This document shows positions 20,256 to 38,987 of a stretch of 64,000 nt of DNA, one piece after another. The stretch covers positions 186,001-250,000 of the forward strand of contig CT868152.1 in assembly GCA_000165425.1 (NCBI GenBank), written 5' to 3'. Source of the stretch: Paramecium tetraurelia. Its lineage: Eukaryota. The notes beneath the pieces are model-generated. The model had not been told where the DNA came from. It ran no database searches and worked only from the letters and a program-made list of their open reading frames with translations. The stretch's first letter is position 1. Each line of letters begins with the position of its first letter. Position numbers and translations under genes: made by a program.

Positions 20256-21225
20256 TTTTATTTAAAAAATAAATATCTAATTTTAATATAAAAAGGAAAT
20301 TATTTCATGTTATTTCAATTACTTTCAAAATTCATATAGATATACATTGCATATTTCTTAGCCCATCCCTTTTCATATAAATACATAAGTAACCATTCCC
20401 TCTTGATTGATCAACTTATTATTCTTTAATCATATTTCTTAATCTCCATTTTATTAAATCAGAAACTCATCTTAAACATTTTTATTTTGTAAAAAAACAA
20501 TTTAAGCTCTATAATTAAAAGTGCGTATCTTCGTAGAATGATAAACTATTAAATTTATGGATCCAATGCATAAATGAGATCTAAAGTAAAGGCTAATTAA
20601 TTCATATATGCGAAGGTCAATTAGAATCCACAATCAATTAATTTATCTTGATAAACAAACTTAAACAACGGTTTCCTATAATCTAGTCATCTCAAATTAA
20701 ATATTTCTTTGATATTTCGTTAATTATGACTTAAAATTATCAATAAATTTAGTTCAAAGAAATACCTTTAATTGCAAATTCATTAAAGATATCTCATTAA
20801 TCTTAAATATGTTGATAACCATCCCAATATTATGAATCTTTAATTCTCTGTTTACAAATTCTGTAATTAATTCTAACATTGAAAAATTAGTATTCCTCAT
20901 AGTTATTAATAACATATGTTAATCTTAAAAGTGTAATCAATTTGAATTTGAATTCTGATAAATTTTTATTCTAATTTACAGCATTTTCATCATCTAATTA
21001 ATATTATTAAAGAGTTACGAAACATATCAAATCAAATCTTATTAAGAAATTCAGATAAATTCTTTTAACCCCCTTTGGTTAAAAATATTTTTAATGAAAT
21101 TTACCTCCTCTATAATTGGTATTGAAACTCAATAATTATTAACTAATAATCAATTTAACAATATAAGTTATTATATATATATACGTGTAATTATAAAGGC
21201 AATAAAATATTAATTAAAAAAAATA

Positions 21226-21298
21226 TGGAGCAACCGAGCTTCGATCTCAGCGCCTCATGCATGCTAAGCATACGCTCTACCAAATGAGCTATTACCCC
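21226..21298 (-). tRNA. trnA-AGC: tRNA-Ala(AGC)
   Basis: GGGGTAATAGCTCATTTGGTAGAGCGTATGCTTAGCATGCATGAGGCGCTGAGATCGAAGCTCGGTTGCTCCA: cloverleaf, G3:U70 identity pair, followed by an oligo-T Pol III terminator. Confidence 0.95.
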
Positions 21299-21856
21299 AC
21301 GTTCGAAAATTAAGTGATCTATACCTATTTATTAACCCCTATGTGATTATTATCTGATAGTTATCAAATATTATTAACTCATTAAATAATTTCAAATCAA
21401 TCAAACATTATTAAAGCAGATTTAGGGTCACTATGAGATAACTGAAGTTAATTTATATTAAATAATACACAAAATGAAAAAAAATAAATTTAATCCAAAA
21501 CTAATATAAATAATATATATTATTTGTTTTTCTGTTTTAACAAAGAAACGTCAGAACTAAAGAGACAAATTTATAAAACATGTGTATAAAAGTAATAAGG
21601 GAAGTTGTGATACTAAGAGAGAGATTTTATATATAATTAAACAGTTCAAACTTATTTATAAGAATATTTTAATTTTATAAATTAATGAGATAGGTTACTT
21701 TTAGAGAAAAGACTTGATTTGATAGTGACTTAATAGCTAATTCAAGGAGTATTATTGTTTCTCTTGCAAACAAGATGAGGGCTGTGTAGATATATCTAAA
21801 GAGTAAGTAGAATAAGAGATGATGATGCTTTATTATTAATATTTTATTAATGATAC

Positions 21857-22518: not shown

Positions 22519-24048
22519 TCATCCTTCTTGTCCAAATTCAGCTGTCCAATCTTCGTATTTCTTAAGATCACCTTAAGAAACAGATGGTCTACACTTTGGA
22601 AGTACACTTAAGAAATCATCCTAAAAAATTCATAATTCTAATACATATTCAGTATTTGGTAAATGAATTTATCCCTTTTTGATATCGAACATTCGCATTT
22701 ATTGACCTTAAGGATCAGAAGGAGAACAAGCTGTGTATTTCATTCCATCTGGAGTTTATATCTATTTAAAATGAGTAGCCCTTTCGGTTTTTCTTAAAGG
22801 TTCAAAACAAGCATCTCTTATTAAAGTATTCATATCAGACCCTGAATATCCCTCCAGCATCTTAGCAATGTCTTCAAATTCAGCTGGGGTTAGATTATTA
22901 GGAGTGCCTTACATTTTGTTTTTCAACAATGACAATCTCCCTTAAAACTCAGGCAGGGGAATGTAAATTCTCTTTTCAAATCTATAAATATCTTAGTGAA
23001 TGATCATACCTTCTTCTAATGGCTGGATCCAAGGTCCATGGTAAGTTTGTGGCACCCAAAACAAGAACTGATTCATTGTTATTGCCAACTCCTTGCATTT
23101 CTACTAAGAATTGAGTCTTAACTCTAGATGAGGCTTCATTCCCACTTCCACTCTCTCTATTACCAGTCATTGAATCCACTTCATCGATGAATATAATTGT
23201 TGGTTTTGATTCTCTAGCCATATTAAATAACTCTTTGATTAATCTCTCTGATTCTCCCACAAACTTAGATATCAAATCTGCTGAAGATACAGAGAAGAAT
23301 GTTCCATCACATTCTGTTGCACATGCTTTAGCTAAGAATGTTTTACCTGTTCCTGGAGGCTAAAATATTTCATTAATGTTGTACTCCATATAATAGGATC
23401 CCCATCCAAGGCTTACGTGCCCCTTAAAAGAGTTCTGGGAATCTCATTGGCGTTATTATAGCTTCTTTTAAGGCTTCCTTTGCTTTCTCTAATCCAGCAA
23501 CATCATCCCATTTGACGTTCGGCTTCTCAGTGACTATAGCTGTTGATAGATTATTCCTAAGAGCTTATTATCCTTCAACAAGTCTAATATAATTCTTATA
23601 TAATAAATTTTACTTTTATTTTCCTTAATCATCCTATTAGTTAGTACTTTTGTTCAATCCATTGTTACCATTTTAGGTTTTTGGTTATTAATAAGGTTAG
23701 GGATTTTATGAGAACTATTATTATTGTTACTATTATTAAGCAGGAAAAGAGTTTTACGCCTATAGACTTGCTCTATAATTATCTAGATAGGCTTTCATAT
23801 TTTGCATCTCTGAAGTAAACTCATTTAATTTTTGACTTGTAATTTATAACAATTAAGGACTTGTTTCTTGTTTAGCATATTTTACTAATTCTTAACATCC
23901 CAATTTCATTTTATCATAACCTCCTTATTTGGCCTCAAGAGTAGCCCCTTTTAAGTATTCAGTTTTTCCTACATTCTATATTTTAAATACCTTCAACTAT
24001 CAATTGAATTGCTTAATCCCTTAACTTGTTTAAATACGATTCTGACAT
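22519..24048 (-). CDS. VPS4: AAA ATPase VPS4 (MIT + AAA)
   Basis: [66 protein letters not shown]. Confidence 0.96.
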
Positions 24049-25222
24049 AAAATAATTAATAATAAATTTTCAATTAAAAGCACCCCTGAAATTATCTGTA
24101 ATCAAAATTTCACCTAGACACTCTAAATCTAATCATATGCACTGTTTTCTATTCTAAGATATACAACATCTTATTCTTATTTAAATTTTTCCATTCAGTA
24201 TACATAAATAATCAATAATGTTACAAACTATTAATAAGTATGGTACATTCTATAATAATTTTTATTCAAATGTTTTGTTTTAAGTTTTTTGATTATTGAT
24301 TGATTTATTCTATTAGATTTATTTGAGTTTGTTGATCCATCAAATATATTTTAGTATTATAATCAATGATTATAATTGTTATCATTATGATCTACATTAT
24401 TAGAACGAACAATAAGCTAGTAAAAATAACTTTTTTAATTATTCTTATTAGTAATCAATATTTTTAGTTACATCTTGCAACGCAATTATATATGAGATAC
24501 TGAAGATAATTTAAATCTGTCTTTGGAAATTTATGATTCAATTCTAATTGAATCATTCTTATCTATTATAAGATAAAAATTAGATGTATTTTAATATTAT
24601 TTCAATTAATAATGTTGTAGATCAACTATTATTTAAATTGTATATAAAATGGGATTATCATTAAAAAGTCTATTAATTAAAGGGAAATCTTATATTATAC
24701 ATATTTAAGAAATCCAAATCTGAACTGAACCCAATTCATTTCAAATGAGAAATCCTTTATTGCAAATTTAAACAAAAGGAGAACTTGAGAATTTCATTTC
24801 GAGTGCCCTCTACCTTTAGTAATTATTAAATTCAATTTAATTGTATTTGGAAATTTAAAATATTATGACATTAAAGGGATTCTCAAAAATAATAAATAAT
24901 ATAAATTCTTCATTCTATCAAACTAAATAAAAATAAGGTCATATTTTTTATTAGTATTGGTAATGATTTAATAATAATATTACTATCTGGACAATTAAAA
25001 CTTGGGCTACTAGAATTATATCAGAGAAGTATTGCTGATATCTAATGAATTTAACTTTTAAATTTTCACAGTTATCAAAATGAAACTTCATTAAAATTCC
25101 ATAAACGATCTTATTTAAAAGTCAAAGACTCATTCCTAAAATTTTATGAATAAAAATAATGACTGACAATTATTTAATGATAATAGTTAATAAAATTTTA
25201 TTGATATATTTAACTACTCCAC

Positions 25223-26150
25223 ATGATCTATTCTCAACATCCATATGATTAACCCATTAGGTAATCTCAAATTTTTATAATCAGTGCTTTTCCTTAAGGA
25301 TACCCCATGTATTATTAGCATTATCAACCATACCCTGCATCATTTGAACCCTATCAAGTATTATCAAATGTGATACCTATCACTGAGCCATTACCATAAG
25401 CAATTATTTATCCACAGGAAACAGTAATTGAAAGATACCCTCCCTTATAAATGCCGAAGAAAGTTGAAGTGGAATATACTCAATAAGAAAAAAGAAAAAA
25501 TTTATACAATTTAGATAACAATCCATATTTGTTTTCATCTGCAAGAGCCAGAAATTATTCGCAATAATTACCTCCATAAAGTTATTAATAATAACCTCAT
25601 GAGGCACACTAAGTTTAATTTTAGACAAATAGAATGGAAAATACTTAAAGAATATTCGACCCCTAAATTTAATCAAACTAACAGAGAGATCTGAGAGTAT
25701 CTGAATCAACAAGATAATTTTACCCACCTCAATAATAATCCATTAATGATTAAATTGATCAGAGACTTAGAAATACTTCACAATACCCAATATCAAATAT
25801 TCAATAGTCCAAAATACTTGAATAAAAAGATTATTACATTCAATCATAGAACATACCTATTTAGGAATATGTACAACCAATTTAAACTTAAAGTTTGCAT
25901 CCTTAGTATTAAATTACTGCATAATTTCAGCCCTTATAATCAAAAAGTCTAAATGATTAAACTGGAAGATAATTGAATGAATCAAAACCTCCTATTATTC
26001 AGTCAACAATTGTAATTTTGAAAATAATATAAATAGCAATACAATGCGCCAAAACAAAGACCCGGACTTAATCTAAACTTAAATCAATATAAATCAGCAA
26101 GTTAAAGCCTTTCACAATCTAAATTAAGAAGATCTAAAATTTTCGATTGA
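25223..26150 (+). CDS. Hypothetical Q/P/Y-rich protein
   Basis: MIYSQHPYDQPI|SAFPQGYPMYYQHYQPYP...VIERYPP...RRSKIFD*; 2 introns. Confidence 0.7.
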
Positions 26151-26742
26151 CTATAATTAATGATGAATATATATTAATTACATTTTATTGTTTTGCCTTC
26201 TGAGACTTTGTGGATTATTAATAATGATATATGTTGCATATAAAAACTACATCCTGTATTCATTTAAAATTGTAAAAATGTGTATCATCATTAAAGTAAA
26301 TTTGAAAAACCTCCATTATTAATGATTTATCTCTAAATTTCTAATTATAAAATTACAATTTAATTTTTCAGATTGGATTATTTTTAAGGTTTTTTTAATT
26401 TCATTTGTTCTTCTCAAAGAGAATCAATCGCTAAATTATATAATTCTTTGTAATTTGAAAGATGATGGAGATAAATTAAATTTTATTTCTATAATTAAGT
26501 ATTATATTTGATAAATATTCAGTCAATTAAATTATTTCTCAATCCATTCTTTCTTATATCCTAAAAGTCTTACATTTCATTTTTAATTCATACTGTGGTT
26601 CCAACATAATTTCTTTAATGTAAAGTATCGTATCATAGATATTTCTTGCAGCTTAGAGCGCTAAAATGGAGTTTAATCAATAAAATTAATTTTCTATATT
26701 TAGTTTATATTATACAATATTAATTTTTTATAGTCAAAAGTG

Positions 26743-27172
26743 TCATTCTTCATCAGTTGTTTCTCTAATTAAGGCAAAATATTTCCTCATAATTTATTTA
26801 CTCCTTAAAATTGGTTTGCTCTATACTTTTATTCTATTTTTGAAGCATTTCTTCTTGCTTTTCTTTATTAGTTAGTTGTAAGGGTTGAATTTTTAATGAT
26901 GTGATCTAGATTTTTATTAAAAAATACCTGCATTGACTTGGTGATCTAGTTCCTATAATCTCACTCATTTTTTTAAATAATGGTTATCCTTTCTTGTATG
27001 AGCCGTCTGCACCTCTAACATTTTATAAAAATTCTAAATATATAGCATGCTCTTAGTCATCCCAATGACCTGTTCGTTATTATGAACAATTATTTGTTTC
27101 TTATTATTTTGAAGTATTTATAGTAGGATCAAGATAATCCTCACCTTGTTAGTCTGAGCCATCGAATTTCAT
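26743..27172 (-). CDS. Single Myb-domain (SHAQKYF-class) transcription factor
   Basis: TGHWDDQEHAIYLEF...FKKMSEIIGTRSPSQCRSHHQKF; one intron; start could lie further upstream. Confidence 0.85.
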
Positions 27173-27777
27173 TTCTAAATAAATCCTAAATTAAATTATG
27201 TAAGTCGAACAATTATTTTCTGATTTATATATCCCATACTGATTACAAATTACGAGCATTAGAATCTGTTTATTTATCTATCTAAGAGTCACTGAACTAA
27301 TTCAAATATTTTTTAAAGCTCTATATTTTTATAGCAATTAGATATTTTACTATTGGTTAGTTTAATTGGATAAAAATTGTTTGCCTTAAATATAGGGAAG
27401 ACTTAAAATTATAAAACCTCTAATCTTTTTTTATAACTCTATTTTTAAAGTACTTGTTATGATAAAATGGCTTATTTGGATAAGATGGGATATTTTTGTA
27501 TCACTATTTATGGTATAAAATAAATGCAATTTCAACCCATTTTTAAATAATCAGGATTGACTATATTAGAATTCATATATATTCAAGAGATTATTGCTAA
27601 TAGTTTCAAAGTTTTAATTAGAAGTATGATTTAGATTGAGAGTTAAAGAATATGAAAGTATTAACTAATGAGTCTACCCTAAGTCATATTTTGATAACTT
27701 ATCCAAAAACTTATAATTAGATAAAAAAGCTGCTGAAAACGAATAAAATTTATGTATGAGCTCAACGACTAAAATAC

Positions 27778-27850
27778 TGCGATAGCCCATTTTCGAACTG
27801 GGGACCTTCAGTGTGTAAAACTGACGTGATAACCACTACACCACAACTGC
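27778..27850 (-). tRNA. trnV-TAC: tRNA-Val(TAC), structurally damaged (probable pseudo-tRNA)
   Basis: GCAGTTGTGGTGTAGTGGTTATCACGTCAGTTTTACACACTGAAGGTCCCCAGTTCGAAAATGGGCTATCGCA; D and anticodon arms intact, but A3-C70, U6-U67 and G53-A61 mismatches. Confidence 0.85.
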
Positions 27851-28225
27851 ATTATAATTTCATAACTAAATTTCACCTTAATTTTTTTAATCATTAATAA
27901 AAATTGATAAACATCTTCTGGTTCTTACTTAAGATATCCATTAAAACTTAAAGTTAATTACAGCTTTAGAATGTTATAATGAAATTGAGAATCTATTTTA
28001 ATATAAAAAGAAGATTTGAAAAAAATCCTTTATAATGAAAAAGAAATATATTTATAAATAAAAATGATTGAATTTTATTTTAATTGTTTTTGTTTATAAT
28101 AACACTTATTATTGTATTAATCCTTTATTTATCTCTTGGAATTCTTCTTATTTATTACCTAAAAATATAATTTAAATATAAGCGATTATTAATTATATGT
28201 GTATATATATATATAATAATATATT

Positions 28226-28996
28226 TCAATAAAGCTGTTATTACTATTAAGATTAAATCTCCTTCAATTTTTAATCATAATGCCTTTAAGCATTATTATA
28301 GATTTATTAATATTATTATTTCTCCTCCTTTGATCTTTCTTAATCATGTATAATTTATTTGATAATGTCGCTTGCTCCCTACGTGTCTCCTTACTTCGCT
28401 TTGTCTTGTCCTTATTTTAAGAGATACAGAATTTGCTTAAAATTAAAAGTGCAAAGTACTTGCTATCCTGGAAAGATGTGCTCCATGTTGGTTAATATCA
28501 TAATAAGTATCTGTTATGTAAGATCTGCCTGTAATTATTACTAGTTCATTTGTTTCATTTGTTATTACATCTATCTAATGGATATTCATATAGAAGCTTT
28601 ACTAGTATTAACTTTATAAATATGGTATTGCATTTAATTCACTTTCCCCATGTGCAAAAGTACAAGTGGGCCCATTCTTGCATTGCCCTGTTTATGGATT
28701 GAAATGCTTGCATAATTATGCTAATTTCATTATCTTGATCATTTACTTTTGTAATTCACAACCATTGGGTTGATCCCTTGAACCTTATTGAAATTGTTGG
28801 CAGGTATAACTTATTCAACATATCCAGCTTATAAACTATTAGCTCTAAGTTCTTATGGTCCATGAGCAAACTAACATCTTAACCCCAAAGCGCAAACCCC
28901 ATTTGATGCTATATTTTGAATCAAATTCTTACTAAAATGTCTACAGAGTTGTGTTTTGTACTTTTGATTCGGATACTGAGTTGCCTATTGGTACAT
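28226..28996 (-). CDS. Tandem CCCH zinc-finger (TIS11/TTP-like) RNA-binding protein
   Basis: KYKTQLCRHF..GVCALGLRCQFAHGPQELR and CKHFNPQTGQCKNGPTCTFAHGESEL. Confidence 0.92.
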
Positions 28997-29573
28997 AATT
29001 TTAAATAATATCTCAATTAAAAGAAATTAATTTATTCATTCTAATAAAAAAAAGATTATTAGATAATTCTTTTTGAGTGCAAAATTTCATGCTATAATTC
29101 TCTCTTCTTTAATACTAAATACTTGATCTTAGAATAAAGATCCTCAAGATTTCAGTTCTTTTTCCTTACAAAATAAATTTTGTGCCTTTTTTAATCATCA
29201 CCAGCTTATCTAATTGAATATACTTTATAGCATTGAGTGGACTTTAATTCATTAGATTTATAAAATTGATAGAAAATTTAAAGATCATAATATAATAAAA
29301 ATTTTATAATAAAAATTTTTGTTCCCATTAGTTCAATTTCAAATATTGACAAATGATGAACAATGTACATATCTATTTCTGGGTTTGAAAAACTATATTG
29401 TATTTAATTCATTATTAAATAGATGTCTATGCAGAATCAATTATTAGAATAATTAACAATCTTTAAGAAAGAACATGTCTTATTATTTATGGATTAGTTC
29501 TAGTTTAATGCAATATGAATAAAGTTAAAATGTTTACGTTTCTTTATTTTATATTATACTTATGTAATATATA

Positions 29574-30106
29574 TCAGAATCTCAATTTTGAGAAAAGGAA
29601 TCTTGATTGAGCTTTCTTGTCAGCCAAACTTCCAGCTGGTAATGTTCTATATTTTTCAGCTAAATATTTTCTCAAATTCTTTCTCAAGTCCTTTCTTTTT
29701 TCAACATTCTTCAATTCAGCCTCTTTTACTCTTTCAATTCTATCTCTGACTTCCTTTAAGGTTGATTCTTCTAATCTGTATCTAGAAACAATCTATATTT
29801 TTAATACCTTGTTGGCATAATGTGATTAAGATTTAATTATTTAATGAAGACTTTCAATGTTGTTCGCTTTCTGATTTACTTTTAACCCATTCTCTTGGTA
29901 ACCTTTCTTGGATATCTTTAAATACCAACAACTAAACCATTTGGGAATTTTGCATCCTAAAAAAATCAAACTTTGATTTACTTTAGTTGATTCTTCATTT
30001 GCTTTAATCAAAATAGCCTTCTTTCCTGCTTATCTGCCAGCAAGCAAAACTACTAGACGACCTGGTTTCAAGCTAGCTATATTACTATTGCTTACAATTT
30101 TCCCAT
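29574..30106 (-). CDS. RPL27: 60S ribosomal protein eL27
   Basis: MGKFLKPGRLVVLLAGRQAGKKA...RYPRKVTKRMG...NHIMPTRY...FLFSKLRF*; 3 introns. Confidence 0.97.
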
Positions 30107-31506: not shown

Positions 31507-32849
31507 ATGAAAGGGTGGAATAATTTTTACAAAGTCTCATAAAGAGTGAAGAGATAAGAAAACTACATTACAGATATAACTAATTTCGAAAATAATAACT
31601 ATTTAATAAATTAGAAAATAGATGAGTATCTTGATTATGAATTTCCTTAAAATGAATGTTTTAGTTTGGCTTAGTTAATAGAATCAATGGTATTTTATAT
31701 TATTATGTTAAGAAATGCAATTGCATAAAGATTTATAAAGGATAGGTTTTAATTATTATTTTATAAGTATTAAAACATCTTTAATAATTACATTAAAAGA
31801 GATTATCACATGGAAGATTAAAGCCTTAAAACATTTTTATTTAATTAAAAAATGAAAAAGATAATAAATTAACAATTATATAATCATTTATTACAATACA
31901 ATAGATCTATTTTATAAATTATAGATATATTGATGATGTTGAATATGAAATTAATTACTCTTAAGATGTTTATGATATTATTGATTGTTGTATCGAATTA
32001 ATATAAGCATATTCAAATACACTTTGTGAATTATTGCTATTAATTATTAATAATTTAAATTAGTATAAAAATAATATAGTGGAAGGGGATATATATAAAG
32101 TACTTGAGTTTATTGATTTATTAATTAAAGAGTATTTAATATTATTATTTTAGATGTGTTGATTAAGAAAACTAAAAAGTAAAAAAAACTAAAATTTATC
32201 CTTCTAAATTAAATGAATAAACTACTTCAACTATTTAATGTTAGGAAGGGGAAGAATATAATATGATATCAAAAAGATGGAGAATTTCAACTATTTTTAT
32301 TACAAAGTTTTTGGATGTAATTTGTTCTTAATCAGTTGATTGTGAATTAGGATTGTAAAATGATTCTATAGAAAATAGAATTGATCAATATGTTCAATAT
32401 ATTGATACAAATCTATTGATATAAGAAGAATTACAGATCTATTAAATTGTAGAATCAATAATAAGATAATAAATGATGAAAATAATTTGGAAGAACTATG
32501 GGGAATTCTTAGAATCTTGGTAATAAGAACATGATTCAAAATGTGAGGAAATAGTTAAAATCATAAATAAAAGAAATAAATATATCTTAAATAATCACTT
32601 AATTTTTATTCTTAATGAATATAACAATGTTAAAAAAATAAATGATGAAATACAAGAAGATATTGAAAAGAATTACAAGTTTAATATCGTTTATGATGAA
32701 TAAAAAGCGAAAGATCAATTTATTTTAGAACTTAAGGTTTAGGCATAAAATTAAGATTTTAATAATATTCAAGCATTTATTGACAATATCAAAACCTAAG
32801 TTAAATAAGAATTATAAGAATATTACAATCAAATTTTAGAACTTGAAAT
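31507..32849 (+). repeat. Left arm of a ~1.35 kb inverted duplication (partner 37644-38987)
   Basis: Reverse complement of 37644-38987 matches along the full length, roughly 95% identical by eye. Confidence 0.95.
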
Positions 32850-32877
32850 ATTAACTTTAATACATGATTTAATTTGA
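31507..32877 (+). CDS. Divergent kinase-like (pseudokinase) protein, copy A
   Basis: MKGWNNFYKV...ILQVLKHLQQLHQKRLSHGRLKPQNIFI (HRDLKPxN-like, no Asp); 2 introns; open to TGA. Confidence 0.7.
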
Positions 32878-32911
32878 TTTTCTTTAATAAAATATTAAAA
32901 TGGAAATTTTA

Positions 32912-34887
32912 TCATTTTGGAGACTATAATATATCACTTTTAACTTATAGCTTTTGATCACTTTTAACATCTTACTAATTTACTGATTCTCCGTTTGATC
33001 CGATTTCTAATTCTTAATGTTCTCCCTTTTCATGATGCTTTTTAGCTCCATGATGATGACCTTGATTTAAAGAGTGTTTTATAATTATTAAATCTAAAAT
33101 TAATGTAATAGCAAAGATGACTAAATTAGCTAGATTATATGACCAAGCGAATCTAGTTAAATCATTTTCTAGATTGGTGAAGAAGTAATCGCTTACAGGA
33201 TCTGAAACACAATTATTATCATTGACATCTTTAATTACAAGTCTTTTGGTATCAATGATAGCGAATGAAACACAAATAACAATGATTTCTGCTATTTACA
33301 AAGCTATCTTAAAGCCAATTTCAATCAAAAATATATAATTATATTAAGAATCAGGACGAGCTAAATAATATTTAATTCTTATTACTTGCCATACAAGACC
33401 AAACAAAATTACAAGCTGTCATAATTCCAACAATATTAAATATAAGACCAATAACAATAAAATATGTTATTGTGACACCCAATTAAACTCTTAAGGATAT
33501 ATATACAAATGATAATGTACTTCCCTCATGAATTACATCATCAAATAATTACCCTCTGCAATTTGGAGCCCAAGGAATGTAAGTCTTAGAATGCATAGTC
33601 CAATTATATCTGGTATCTATGTTAAAATACGGTAATTTTTCCTTAAGATAAATTACATTATTGGATAAATAAAATTATTCTTCATCTATCGAATGAATTA
33701 ATTTAAATAAGGGATCTGTATTTTCGCATTATTTTCTTCTATCTGTCATAAGAGGATAATCAATTCTGTTTGGAGAGATATTCTAATTTTAATTCCTTCT
33801 GCACACCTTATCACTTTCTGTAACTCTAAATTCAATAAGAGGTAAATTTGATGTATTCTTTAAGTAATAAAAATAAAACCCCTTTCCTAAATCATAAATA
33901 AATCCAATATTAGTATCATTTAATTTTGATAAATTTTAGTAATTAGAATTAGTTGTAAACCCAATATCTGAAATTGGACAACTCATATCGGGTGGAACAC
34001 AAAATTTATTGTCTCCTGTTCCGCATATAGTTTTATTTTCTGATTCACAATAACTTTAATTTGTTTATAAACTAATTCCTGTTTTTCTTCTAGCGCATAG
34101 AACAAAGGCTAAAATAACAATGTTTCATTTACGTCTTCCATAAGAACCATCGTTCCAAGAGTTAAAGACCTTAGGTTATTACTCATCTACCGTTTCACAA
34201 CTTTTCGTTGTCATATCTTAACTACAAACTCTTCCAAGCATAAAAGATTATTTAAAGAAGCCCTCTACATTTTCTGTGTTTTAATTGTTCAATGAATTAA
34301 AATTAAACCCCTAGCTACAATCACATCCAATCATTGTTCCAGGCCAATAATATTCATATAATGAAGAATACTAAATTTTTTCAAATTATTATTACTTCAC
34401 TTCCAAATTAAGTCTTACAATTTTTATTTGTATAAGTATATTGAATATCGTCTATTACATATGAACCCATGTTATCTAAAAATTGTTTATAATCTCCTTC
34501 ATATACTGTCTGATCTCTATATGATAAAATACTTAATGCTAATACAGTTAGACTTACTAAAAAAAAATAAGCTTAATATGCCAATCTCACTTTATCAACT
34601 GGTTTTTTACGCAATAATCGTTTTAGTCTTCTTGCTGAAATCAATTTTTATTCTTTTTATTGTTTCTTTTTTTTTTTTATTATATCTCTTCTCATCATTT
34701 TAGGATCTTCCTCAATATAAATTTGATTTAACACGCTACCCATTTGATTTCCTTCACTGTATTTTTGTGTTTACTACTGTCCCTCCTAATCTAAATTTTG
34801 ATTATTATCTAAGTCTTGTTTTAAAGGTTATTGATCTTAGTCTGGGTGATATTCCTAAGGTTCTAAGTTTTAGTCTTATTCAGCCAT
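32912..34887 (-). CDS. Ciliate-type multi-pass membrane protein with Cys-rich extracellular domain
   Basis: N-terminal TM (AYFFLVSLTVLALSIL), YWPGTMIGCDC, ICGTGDNKFCVPPDMSCPI, C-terminal TM helices; several introns. Confidence 0.75.
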
Positions 34888-36341
34888 TAATTAATTAATA
34901 TATTCAAAAATATGAAAGGTGTGGCTTAGAATAATACATCATTAGAATATATAAAGAATTAAATCTCATATTTTATTCTTCCCAACAGTGATATCATTAA
35001 ATCATTTATTACAACACGACTTATTCATCTATTTCATTCTGTCTTTATATTTTATATTAAGATTATTTGGAATTATTAATATGTAACAGAAATTATTGTA
35101 AATGGATTTTTTAATAATATTAAGCTATCCTTTTATTTGATATTAATAATATTTTAACTCAAATTACTTTGATGTAATGGTTATTTCTATTGTTTATAGT
35201 ATTAAATCAATCTTGATTAGAAATACATTATAATTTAGTGTAATAATTTCACTTATTTTTTATTATCAAAAGCTAATTTCTTTTGTTATAAGTTATTATA
35301 ATAATTTTGTTGCAAAATGATGATTTCAAAGAATCTGATAATGATCATATGTCAATATTAGTATATAATTGAATTAAAACTCATGATAAGAGAAGAAGCC
35401 TACTACTTCGAAAAATAAATTGGAAGTATCTCCTTTCATCCTACTGAAAAGATCTTGGATAAACTAACATGGAGGATGTAAACAAATCCTTTTTCATCAA
35501 TAAGTGCAAATCAGTAAATCAATTGAAATTGATTGAATTATATTTATTTTTTATCTTCTTTATCTCAATTCTTAATAAAACTTGATATTTAGGTGAAAAA
35601 GTCCAAAATTTCTTTATTTATTTAAATAGTATAAATTTAACAACACCGATGAACATCTTGGAATCATCGTTGCTTTAGTATTTATTAGAAATTCTAAGTC
35701 AGTATTTTGAATACAGAATCGAAATTATTGGAATCTTTAAGGTCATCGAAGAATAGTTGTTGCTAATTCTTAAATAGAGGATCAAACTTTAACATGTAGT
35801 ATTAAAATTTTATAATCTTTACTCTATTTAATAAATTTGAAGGTTAATAAGTTCTTTAGAAATAAAGATTATTCTATTAAAAATACAATTAATAAGAGCA
35901 TCTTCGAGATTTAGTTAATGATAATTTGATATCATTAAAATCTTATGATAAATCATAAAAAAACAAAAATTATTATTAAACAAAATCAAAAATTTATAGT
36001 AATATAAACTAAGAAATAAATTTTATAAAAGCATATTAAGAAATTAAAGCAGTTTTACTCAAAATTGAACTCTGATAAAGTTTTTGATTTTTGATGATAA
36101 TTATTTACTAAATTACTTACCAACATAATCATTATAACATTTATTCAATAATAATTTACATCTTTCATAAGAATCAATAATCAAATAATTGGTAAGTAAA
36201 TTGGCTATTAAACTTGTCAGATTTCAATCTTAATCCGATGATGTTGAAAATTTATTAGAAATTTATTACATTTATTGTAATTATAATTGGTGTTTATATT
36301 AAATTTAATTAATAAAACGTGTTAAATAATTAAATTAAAAG

Positions 36342-37486
36342 ATGAGTTAAGTATCATAAAGATAAAGAAGTCCTTCCCCTTAATCTCCAGAAAAGGTTGC
36401 ATAAAGAGAAAAGGCAGCATAAGCAATGAAAAGACGAAACCAAACATAACCAAGCTTTTTTGATAAATATGCTTACCATTTGGTAATTGGTGCATTTGGA
36501 TTTGTTTGTGTTTATGCTTTATATTCTATACTAACACGTTCAAGCAAGAAGCTGACCACAGCGCCTGTAATAGATGAAGAAGAAATTGCAGGTCATAATT
36601 CTTTAGGATCTTATTTACAAGGGCCAAATGATTTCTTTAAAGATTGGAAATTTAGTGATGCTAAATTCATCTTTAACAATCATTTGACATTCAAAGGAAA
36701 AATCCCATAATGCCCAGAGAGTGGAGTCATTATTCCAGAGAGTTACAATTTTAGAGAAGTTTAACCTGAATGTGCTTAACCAATCTATAATCAAGGTAAT
36801 CTATTGATCAATCGATAGGAAATTGCTCATCCAGTTATTCTATAGCTGCTGTTTCAGCTACAAGTGATAGATTATGTAAAGTCAGAAATGGTGAATTTTA
36901 AGATTAATTATCACCATAATCACCAATCTCATGTGACAATAAAAATTATAGATGTGGAGGAGGAAGTGTTACTAGAGTATTAGAAGTCGGCAAAAAGCAA
37001 GGATTTGTTACAACCTCTTGTTTACCATATACTGGAACTGAAGATGCAAAAGATAATTGTGATGCTCTCTTTACTAATTGTGAAAAATATAAGATCTAAG
37101 ATTATTGTGTTATCTCCAGCGAGGAAAACATTAAAAGAGAAATCTTAAACAATGGGCCTGTTGTTGCAGTTATATAAGTATTCAAAGACTTCCTTGTTTA
37201 TAAAGGTGGAATCTATGAGGTCGTGGAAGGAAGCTCAAAGTATAATTAAATTGTATTAATTAGATTCCAATATGGACATGCTGTCAAGGTTATTGGTTGG
37301 GGTAAACAAGACGGAGTTAATTATTGGGTTATCGAAAATTCATGGGGAGATTCATGGGGTCTTAAAGGTTTAGCCTATGTTGCTGTTGGTATTTAAATCA
37401 TATTATGTCAAGGTTAAAATTAATTGCAATTAGAAGCATATTCAGTAGCACCTATTGTAGCAGCTCCACAAGAAAAGGCTGAATGA
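36342..37486 (+). CDS. Papain-family (cathepsin B/TINAG-like) protein with Cys->Ser at the catalytic site
   Basis: [66 protein letters not shown]-terminal TM anchor; 3 introns. Confidence 0.92.
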
Positions 37487-37615
37487 TTGTATCATATTAT
37501 ATCATTGTACCTTTTATTTCTAATATTAATTTCTTAATTGCCTAAATTAAACTAAAATTATATACTTAAAAATTATATAGGTATGCATATTTATGATAAA
37601 AAAATTAAATCAATT

Positions 37616-38987
37616 TCATATTAAATCATCATCAAGGTGTAACATTTCAAGTTCTAAAATTTGATTGTAATATTCTTATAACTCATATTTAACTTAGTTT
37701 TTGATATTGTTAATAAATGCTTGAATATTATTAAAATCATAATTTTATGCCTAAACCTTAAGTTCTAAAATAAATTGATCTTTCGCTTTTTATTCATCAT
37801 AAACGATATTAAACTTGTAATTCTATTCAATATCTTCTTTTATTTCATCATTTATATTTTTAATATTGTTATATTCATTAAGAATACAAATTAAGTGATT
37901 ATCTAAGATATATTTATTTCTTTTATTTATGATTTTAACTATTTCCTCACATTTTGAATCATGTTCTTATTACCGAGATTCTAAGAATTCTCCATAGTTC
38001 TTCCAAATTATTTTCATCATTTATTATCTTATTATTGATTCAAAAATCTTAAAGATCGGTAATTCTTCTTATTTCAATAGATTTGTATCAATATATTGAA
38101 CATATTGATCAATTCTATTTTCTTTAGAATCATTTTACAATCCTAATTCACAATCAACTGATTAAGAACAAATTACATCCAAAAACTTTGTAATAAAAAT
38201 AGTCGAATATCTCGATCTTTTTGATATCATATTATATTCTTCCCCTTCCTAACATTAAATAGTAGAAGTAGTTTATGCATTGAACTTCGAACAATAAAAT
38301 TTTAGTTTTTTTTACTTTTTAGTTTTCTTAATCAACACATCTAAAATAATAATATTAAATACTCTTTAATTAATAAATCAATAAACTAAAGTACTTTATA
38401 TATATCCCCTTCCACTATATTATTTTTATACTAATTTAAATTATTAATAATTAATAGCAATAATTCACAAAGTGTATTTGAATATGCTTATATTAATTCG
38501 ATACAACAATCAATAATATCATAAACATCTTAAGAGTAATTAATTTCATATTCAACATCATCAATAATTCTATAATTTATAAAATAGACCTTTTATATTG
38601 TAATGAGTGATTATATAATTGTTAATTTATTATCTTTTTCATTTTTTAATTAAATAAAAATGTTTTAAGGCTTTAATTTTCCATGTGATAATCTCTTTTA
38701 ATGTAATTATTAAAGATGTTTTAATACTTCTAAAATGATAATTAAAACCTATCCTTTATAAATCTTTATGAAACCACATTTCTTAACATAATAATATAAA
38801 ATACCATTGATTCTATTAACTAAGCCAAACTAAAACATTCATTTTAATGAAATTCATAATCAAGATTTTCATCGATTTTCTAATTTATCAAATAGTTATT
38901 ATTTTCGAAATTAGTTATATCTCTAATGTAGTTTTCTTATCTTTTCACTCTTTATGAGACTTTGTACCAATTATTCCACCCTTTCAT
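37616..38987 (-). CDS. Divergent kinase-like (pseudokinase) protein, copy B (frameshifted or with an extra intron)
   Basis: MKGWNNWYKV...SHGKLKPQNIFI; inverted paralog of 31507-32877; one extra T near 38297 relative to copy A. Confidence 0.65.
37644..38987 (-). repeat. Right arm of the inverted duplication (partner 31507-32849)
   Basis: Direct sequence match to the left arm, from the ATG to about 25 nt before the stop. Confidence 0.95.

What the first reader, a model, noticed from the sequence alone, without database searches (positions are those of the whole stretch)
31507..38987. Recent inverted duplication of a pseudokinase-like gene bracketing a membrane protein and an inactive protease
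Two ~1.35 kb arms (31507-32849 plus, 37644-38987 minus) face each other around a 4.8 kb core. The core holds a Cys-rich membrane protein and a Cys->Ser papain homologue. Homology starts at the ATG, stops about 25 nt before the stop codon, and the flanks are unrelated. Both shared introns are identical, while the exons carry many amino-acid changes (F/W, T/R, P/H, CNC/CGF, R/K). Inference: coding-region-limited gene conversion or DNA-level copying, possibly with diversifying selection. The arms could also allow inversion of the core.
Basis: partly seen in the sequence, partly recalled or inferred. Interest (0 to 1): 0.7.

Follow-up and report, generated by a model that had tools for sequence, protein, structure and literature searches.

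The report
Old inverted pseudokinase pair, self-homogenising
In the ciliate Paramecium, two mirror-image copies of a catalytically dead kinase gene look newly duplicated but are older than the last whole-genome duplication and have stayed alike by repeatedly copying from each other, and their gene family sits in such mirror pairs at three of its four known sites.

Summary
The inverted repeat is real (31507-32877 +, 37616-38987 -, about 95% identical), but it is not recent. The genome is Paramecium tetraurelia. The ohnologous scaffold carries the same convergent pair around the same membrane gene. Its arms are 94% identical to each other but only 71% to these, and 336 of 337 informative sites group partners by locus. 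Between-locus dS (0.70) matches the neighbouring ohnologue (0.73); within-pair dS is 0.068. Sister species hold same-contig pairs that mostly group by species. This is long-running, patchy gene conversion confined to the gene body; the last 30 nt still show the old positional ancestry. The protein has an N-terminal kinase fold lacking the catalytic Asp, DFG and Gly loop, plus a helical tail. dN/dS is 0.59 (0.33-1.15) within the pair and 0.45 between loci, so diversifying selection is not supported, and identical introns are expected by chance (p 0.13). A third pair of the family is divergent. Arm B carries a +1 frameshift, probably an assembly error. The core keeps its ancestral orientation; somatic flipping is untested.

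The parts
31507..32877 (+). Arm A: intact pseudokinase gene, 441 aa, three exons
   Evidence: Spliced translation under code 6 equals database protein P0013, 441 aa, named P. tetraurelia; kinase fold over residues 1 to about 210
31690..31712 (+). Arm A intron 1 (23 nt)
   Evidence: GT..AG candidate that restores the frame; an intron lies at the same place in the C58 and C63 copies
32132..32153 (+). Arm A intron 2 (22 nt)
   Evidence: present in the C58 copies, absent from the C63 copies
32848..32877 (+). Unconverted 3' tip of arm A
   Evidence: Last 30 nt: 25/30 identical to the ohnologue C but 19/30 to partner B, the reverse of the gene body
32912..34887 (-). Core gene 1: Cys-containing predicted membrane protein, no Pfam family
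   Evidence: ORFs; no family at cut-off for three exons; ohnologues on C58 (83%), C236 (75%), C225 (73%); dN/dS 0.09. Membrane segments judged by eye
34900..36300 (.). AT-rich interval where the C58 ohnologue holds a GSK3-like kinase gene; no clear remnant here
   Evidence: C58 ORF with HRDIKPQN and DFG (the GSK3 label is recalled from motifs); best tblastn E 3.3 in this interval
36342..37486 (+). Core gene 2: papain-family homologue, 357 aa, catalytic Cys replaced by Ser, His and Asn motifs kept, N-terminal hydrophobic segment
   Evidence: decayed on C58, conserved on C236 and C225 at about 82%
37616..38987 (-). Arm B: partner pseudokinase gene, with a +1 frameshift as assembled
   Evidence: annotated as P0014 (431 aa), which omits 10 residues, matching a 31-nt third intron
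38296..38299 (-). Four-base homopolymer holding the extra base of arm B
   Evidence: the skipped segment is in frame in arm A and in the 7 sister-species proteins of this clade
38341..38362 (-). Arm B intron 2 (22 nt), identical to arm A
38782..38804 (-). Arm B intron 1 (23 nt), identical to arm A

Best explanation
A fast-evolving pseudokinase gene was duplicated in inverted orientation about 5 kb away, across an existing block of two or three ordinary genes, before the most recent Paramecium whole-genome duplication (shown). Since then the two arms have repeatedly exchanged sequence by germline non-allelic gene conversion, most simply by fold-back pairing within one chromatid or between sisters. 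Homogenisation is shown; the pairing geometry is inferred. Tracts need homology on both sides, so conversion is confined to the gene body, leaves old divergent patches and spares the 3' tip. The inverted orientation lets the pair persist, because a crossover between arms flips the core rather than deleting it (inferred from general knowledge). The product is most likely a non-catalytic scaffold or regulator: a kinase-fold domain plus a helical tail, under weak purifying selection (fold and motif loss shown; role inferred). The core genes are passengers.
For: Same convergent pair on C58, 93.8% within, 70-71% between loci. Informative DNA sites AB|CD 336, AC|BD 1, AD|BC 0 of 1352 columns. dS A/C 0.70 against 0.73 for the adjacent membrane gene; dS A/B 0.068. 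Protein tree of 25 rows: 7 of 8 same-contig pairs are sisters, the P. primaurelia pair sits in an unresolved fork with P. pentaurelia. Differences are clustered: A/B p 0.011, 0.002 and 0.0001 on three statistics, E/F 0 of 10000 shuffles on all three. B keeps F65 and E79, shared with the more distant copies, where A and both P. octaurelia copies have C and Q, as expected for old unconverted patches. The 3' tip reverts to positional ancestry. The catalytic-loop Asp and DFG are missing in 25 of 25 family rows. VIA-align Z up to 11.2 (rmsd 4.6, 191 aligned) to kinases. Core genes show ordinary reciprocal ohnologue loss.
Against: No read data could be laid, so assembly collapse, the frameshift and expression are untested. 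For sister species I saw only proteins and equal contig lengths, not orientation or spacing. The P. octaurelia pair orthologous to A/B is only 66% identical, less than either copy is to A (72%, 70%), so homogenisation is not universal. Three of the four A-D copies have frame-breaking insertions as assembled (6 against about 0.8-1.2 expected from the published error rate), so some may be pseudogenes. Nothing here explains why this family in particular forms inverted pairs twice, in opposite geometries.
Confidence: 0.82

Rival explanations
1. Recent inverted duplication, arising independently at each locus and in each species.
For: Within-pair dS is only 0.05-0.07 in all three pairs; the arms are absent from the older ohnologues C236 and C225.
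Against: It needs parallel duplications into the same two slots on C169 and C58, and again in several species. The 3' tip of A is closer to C than to B. Differences are patchy rather than evenly spread.
Confidence: 0.03
2. The arms are an invertible cassette: crossovers between them flip the core in the macronucleus or germline, swap promoters or 3' halves, and homogenise the arms as a by-product.
For: 1.37 kb arms at 95% identity, 4-6 kb apart, at three loci. Six of seven family copies are in inverted pairs, against no other such repeat in the DNA examined. The excess of +1 indels in arms could reflect mixed reads. I recall, unverified, a report of macronuclear inversions between wide inverted repeats in this species.
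Against: The core has the ancestral orientation on both C169 and C58 relative to C236 and C225; chance would give this one time in four if germline flipping were frequent, so this is weak. The core genes are unrelated and differ between loci. The pairs are convergent at two loci and divergent at one, so a flip would have different effects.
Confidence: 0.12
3. Diversifying selection keeps the two arms different in patches against conversion, as in a recognition or conflict gene pair.
For: 41.5 of 57 differences are non-synonymous, and codon positions are hit evenly (19, 17, 21). The family evolves fast: 55% amino-acid identity between ohnologues against 87% for the neighbour. Within-pair dN/dS is 0.59-0.72 with intervals that include 1.
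Against: No estimate exceeds 1; the between-locus interval is 0.33-0.61. Of 39 A/B amino-acid differences only 1 or 2 recur as arm-specific states in P. octaurelia.
Confidence: 0.12
4. Arm B (and C, D) are decaying pseudogenes kept similar only by conversion from, or among, partners.
For: Frame-breaking insertions: B 1, C 4, D 1; no full-length P. tetraurelia protein for C or D appeared.
Against: All six are +1 insertions, the main error type of this assembly (10,339 insertions against 929 deletions corrected; PMC3464196, passage). No nonsense codon occurs in B once read in frame. Sister-species partners are full length, and E and F are both intact.
Confidence: 0.2
5. The arms are terminal inverted repeats of a composite transposon carrying the core.
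For: Two long inverted repeats bracket cargo genes.
Against: The core is collinear with arm-less older ohnologues, so it did not move. The arms are intron-bearing genes bounded by start and stop codons. No transposase was found in arms or core. The family is small.
Confidence: 0.01

Closest known systems
Concerted evolution of inverted duplicates by arm-to-arm gene conversion (palindromes of Y and W chromosomes; PMC3403216, search listing and start of abstract only)
   Same: Inverted copies around a unique spacer, more alike within a species than between species, older than their identity suggests.
   Different: Arms are one 1.4 kb gene, with homology cut at the ATG and stop; the spacer is larger than the arms; not on a sex-limited chromosome; identity is about 95%, with patches.
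Gene conversion between whole-genome-duplication ohnologues in Paramecium aurelia (McGrath et al. 2014, PMC4199370, passages read)
   Same: Homogenisation of paralogues within species; proposed there to prolong duplicate retention.
   Different: That process acts between chromosomes and was mostly confined to the time just after the duplication. Here it is local and still recent (dS 0.07), while the ohnologues themselves have diverged normally (dS 0.70). The paper counts only 351 tandem duplicates, defined as neighbouring genes; these pairs have genes in between.
Wide inverted repeats carrying kinase-like 'P genes' in P. tetraurelia (recalled from memory, attributed by me to Duret et al. 2008; paper not held, not verified)
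   Same: As recalled: inverted repeats made of kinase-like genes, with inversion of the enclosed macronuclear segment.
   Different: As recalled these belong to a family of hundreds of genes with spacers of tens to hundreds of kb. This family has 7 detected copies and spacers of 4-6 kb, and no further member lies on 460 kb of this scaffold.
Eukaryotic pseudokinases (for example IRAK3, PAN3, BIR2, KKT14, all among the fold matches)
   Same: Kinase fold with loss of catalytic residues.
   Different: The N-lobe is shortened (no Gly-rich loop), all canonical motifs are lost, and the tail is a helical domain with no clear structural match. All named relatives are from Paramecium aurelia species.

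Membership tests
Concertedly evolving inverted gene pair | Two copies in inverted orientation on one chromosome | tested here: met
Concertedly evolving inverted gene pair | Pair older than its sequence identity (present at an outgroup locus) | tested here: met
   Ohnologous pair on C58; dS 0.70 between loci against 0.068 within
Concertedly evolving inverted gene pair | Partners group by locus or species, not by position | tested here: met
   336 against 1 informative sites; 7 of 8 same-contig pairs are sisters
Concertedly evolving inverted gene pair | Inverted, syntenic arrangement in sister species | not testable with these tools
   Only proteins and contig lengths were returned
Pseudokinase | Protein-kinase fold | tested here: met
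   Model pLDDT 75.7; Foldseek best E 5e-4 to STK17B, all listed rows kinases or kinase-domain proteins; VIA Z 11.2, rmsd 4.6, 191 aligned; Pfam Pkinase E 1e-4, below cut-off
Pseudokinase | Loss of catalytic Asp (HRD), DFG Asp or Gly loop | tested here: met
   HGRLKPQN and INY in A; no Asp at either place in 25 of 25 rows; motif positions assigned by eye from the alignment and model
Pseudokinase | No phosphotransfer activity | not testable with these tools
   Needs an assay
Recent segmental duplication | Absent from the ohnologous locus and sister species | tested here: not met
Wide inverted repeats with P genes (recalled definition) | Member of a family of hundreds of copies | tested here: inconclusive
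   7 copies from five sequence searches and one pattern search that give lower bounds only; the definition itself could not be checked
Wide inverted repeats with P genes (recalled definition) | Both orientations of the enclosed segment among macronuclear molecules | not tested
   No reads were laid
Composite transposon | Element inserted as a unit, cargo absent from the empty site | tested here: not met
   Core genes are collinear on C236 and C225 without arms
Inactive papain-family homologue (core gene 2) | Peptidase_C1 domain with catalytic Cys replaced | tested here: met

The most novel reading that the evidence does not exclude
This Paramecium pseudokinase family is selected to exist as inverted pairs, and the arms recombine in each new macronucleus. 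The enclosed genes would then flip, and each cell would carry a mix of chimeric pseudokinase alleles with swapped promoters or tails. This would be a local somatic diversification system older than the aurelia radiation, distinct from IES excision, which also feeds the germline homogenisation seen here.
Probability: 0.1. Interest if true: 0.8.

Novelty: new member of a known kind. Interest (0 to 1): 0.4.

Why it matters
It shows that near-identical local duplicates in Paramecium can be as old as the aurelia radiation, so dating them by identity is off about tenfold. It offers a small replicated system: three pairs in one genome, two geometries, several species, and one lineage (P. octaurelia) where homogenisation has largely lapsed. 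That suits measuring local conversion rates, tract limits and escape from conversion in a genome where local duplicates are reported to be very rare. The repeated inverted-pair habit of one orphan pseudokinase family is unexplained and makes a cheap test for somatic inversion. The mechanism itself is known.

Tried and rejected
No read-level evidence was obtained; only lists runs that hold about 0.9 of the sampled words, which I did not use as evidence on frameshift or expression. Accession numbers for sister-species proteins could not be looked up, so gene adjacency there rests on equal contig lengths. The helical tail (residues 202-441) gave no clear fold: Foldseek best E 0.37, VIA best Z 9.2, rmsd 2.6, 90 aligned, within the range for generic helical bundles; Pfam P450 E 0.006 is below cut-off and dismissed. 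ESM Atlas gave kinase-like clusters at 0.91-0.93 and TM below 0.5, a lead only. A DNA profile of the four arms found no remnant on C236, C225, C3 or C446. The 52-nt hit on C313 and weak hits on C557, C668, C624, C84 and C44 (E 0.004-0.01) were not counted; the family profile did not recover C557, C313 or C44, and the other three were not tested further. C and D were left out of the protein tree because they are frameshifted as assembled; G was represented only by the similar database protein P0024. Ten paper searches found no description of this locus, family or of wide inverted repeats in Paramecium; the library lacks most subscription papers, and Duret et al. 2008 is not held. A search of the McGrath 2014 supplements for 'tandem' found nothing, with 3 of 14 files not searched, so its tandem list may bear on novelty. 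Three look-ups of earlier findings returned nothing. No complex prediction was run because no binding is claimed.
Full report
Setting. The window is G000:C169:186001-250000 of a 72.09 Mb, 697-contig genome. It reads under the ciliate code with 22-24 nt introns. The arm A protein is identical to a database protein named Paramecium tetraurelia, on a contig of the same length. I call the window arms A and B, the C58 arms C and D, the C63 arms E and F, and the C69 copy G.

The observation. The repeat finder gives two abutting inverted blocks, 693 nt at 97% and 680 nt at 94%, split by a one-base indel. Arm A is an intact 441-aa gene at 31507-32877. Arm B spans 37616-38987 on the minus strand and has one extra base just after intron 2, which ends its frame early. 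The public annotation of B (431 aa) lacks ten residues there, matching a 31-nt third intron, but A and the seven sister-species proteins of this clade keep that segment in frame. In 460 kb of this scaffold there are 7 inverted matches of 250 nt or more, and only this one exceeds 72% identity.

It is old. A DNA search of the genome found two more copies on C58, in the same convergent arrangement, at 71% identity. The surrounding region is collinear with the window at 75-90%, so C58 is the ohnologue from the recent whole-genome duplication. C and D are 93.8% identical to each other. Of 1352 aligned columns, 336 group A with B and C with D, one groups by position and none the third way. Synonymous divergence between A and C is 0.70, the same as for the adjacent membrane gene (0.73), while A and B differ by 0.068 and C and D by 0.061. 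In the last 30 nt the pattern reverses: A matches C at 25/30 and B at 19/30. The pair therefore predates the duplication and has been homogenised within each locus since.

Sister species agree. Three protein searches returned relatives named from P. octaurelia, primaurelia, pentaurelia and sonneborni, often two per contig length. In a tree of 25 rows, 7 of 8 same-contig pairs are sisters; the primaurelia pair lies in an unresolved fork with pentaurelia. Pair identities are 86-98%, with one exception: the octaurelia pair orthologous to A/B is only 66% identical, though its kinase region is still 78-90%. Three more clusters hold 2, 2 and 3 members at 90% or more on one contig, which fits further pairs but could be duplicate records. 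I did not see orientation or spacing in these species.

How conversion looks here. A/B differences are clustered (longest identical run 178 nt, p 0.011; dispersion p 0.002; close neighbours p 0.0001), and E/F more so (447 nt run, 0 of 10000 shuffles). Some patches are old: B keeps F65 and E79, shared with more distant copies, where A and both octaurelia copies carry C and Q. In all three pairs identity begins at or just before the ATG and decays before the stop. This fits tracts that need flanking homology, with the conserved MKGW start holding the 5' edge (inference). The introns are retained, so the template is DNA or unspliced RNA, not mRNA (inference). Their identity is expected with probability 0.13.

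Selection. dN/dS is 0.59 (bootstrap 0.33-1.15) for A/B, 0.72 (0.39-1.51) for E/F, 0.68 (0.43-1.80) for C/D and 0.45 (0.33-0.61) for A/C, against 0.09 for the membrane gene. The gene is constrained but fast. Of 39 amino-acid differences between A and B only 1 or 2 recur as arm-specific states in octaurelia, against 25 species-specific sites. Diversifying selection is not supported, though site models were not run.

The protein. AlphaFold2 on a 17-row alignment gives pLDDT 75.7. Residues 1 to about 210 match protein kinases by Foldseek (best E 5e-4) and VIA-align (Z 11.2, rmsd 4.6, 191 aligned). The catalytic loop reads HGRLKPQN and the DFG position INY; no row of 25 has either Asp, and the N-terminus is too short for a Gly-rich loop. 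The tail is helical with no clear match. A non-catalytic scaffold or regulator is the likeliest role; that is inference.

The family and its habit. Genome searches with the arm DNA, two exons of A, the second exons of F and G, and a start pattern found seven copies at four loci, a lower bound. E and F on C63 form a third inverted pair, 95.3% identical, both intact, but divergent and about 4 kb apart. They share 27% protein identity with A. G on C69 is single and sits where E does in an older ohnologous block; the recent ohnologues C3 and C446 lack the gene. In 533 kb of fetched DNA, chosen for relation to the family and not at random, the only three inverted repeats of 200 nt or more are these pairs. 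McGrath et al. 2014 report that tandem duplicates are extraordinarily rare in Paramecium and mostly old (passages). Why this family paired up twice in opposite geometries is unexplained.

The core. The older ohnologues C236 and C225 carry the membrane gene and the papain homologue in the same order and orientation, between the same flanks, with no arm or remnant. The arms were either added around an existing block between the intermediate and recent duplications, or lost on that side. The core did not move, which rules out a composite transposon, and it has the ancestral orientation on both C169 and C58. C58 keeps a GSK3-like kinase (label recalled from motifs) missing from the window, and its papain homologue has decayed. 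These are ordinary reciprocal losses, so the core genes look like passengers.

The frameshifts. B has one, C four and D one +1 insertion; A, E and F have none. Arnaiz et al. 2012 removed 10,339 short insertions and filled 929 deletions when polishing the Sanger assembly of this species (PMC3464196, passage). All six lesions are of that dominant type, but six exceeds the 0.8-1.2 expected (p 0.0002-0.001, assuming independent errors; three lie within 36 nt). Assembly error is the more likely cause for B; real decay is not excluded, and no reads were available to decide.

Comparison and verdict. It works like palindrome-arm gene conversion and passes the three membership tests I could run for a concertedly evolving inverted pair. 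I recall a report of wide inverted repeats made of kinase-like genes in this species, but could not obtain it, and this family looks far smaller. Ten paper searches found no description of this locus. Papers seen: passages of PMC3464196, PMC4199370, PMC13085455, PMC13076228 and PMC5182062; search listing and start of abstract of PMC3403216. Verdict: a real feature, an old inverted pseudokinase pair kept alike by conversion, a new member of a known kind; interest 0.4. The bolder reading, somatic flipping with chimeric alleles, stays open at about 0.1.

Noticed in passing
L021:5192-6477 (+) and L020/L021, G000:C63:22841-24164 (-): A third inverted pair of the same pseudokinase family, divergent, 95.3% identical, both intact at 420 aa, with a 447-nt identical run; its recent ohnologue C3 lacks both copies.
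   Followed up: yes
Proteins P0015 and P0016 (P. octaurelia): The pair orthologous to A/B is only 66% identical, a possible escape from conversion in one species.
   Followed up: partly
L007, G000:C58 about 236400-237750 (-): An apparently intact GSK3-like kinase gene inside the C58 core that has no counterpart in the window; the papain homologue shows the reverse loss.
   Followed up: partly
G000:C169:65377-66408 with 75921-76956, and 69484-70209 with 79588-80313 (L091-L093): Direct repeats at 97-99% identity about 10 kb apart in a Cys-rich repeat protein, with a 70% inverted relative at 35.3-37.2 kb; a recent duplication, local conversion or assembly artefact.
   Followed up: no
window 208xx-2157xx of C169 (window 22600-29800) against G000:C69:434000-440000 and 484700-485500: Matches at 69-88% suggest that the C169 and C69 blocks are related by the oldest duplication, which would make the A/B and E/F/G loci very old ohnologues; gene order is rearranged and this is not established.
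   Followed up: partly
window 21225-21299 (-) and 27777-27851 (-): tRNA-Ala(AGC) and tRNA-Val(TAC) genes.
   Followed up: no
G000:C225:123600-124700: An unrelated gene-like stretch, partly decayed on C236, occupies the slot where arm A lies on C169 and C58.
   Followed up: no
window 36342-37486 (+): The Cys-to-Ser papain homologue has an N-terminal hydrophobic segment and is conserved at about 82% DNA identity in two older ohnologues, so it is under strong constraint despite the catalytic change.
   Followed up: partly
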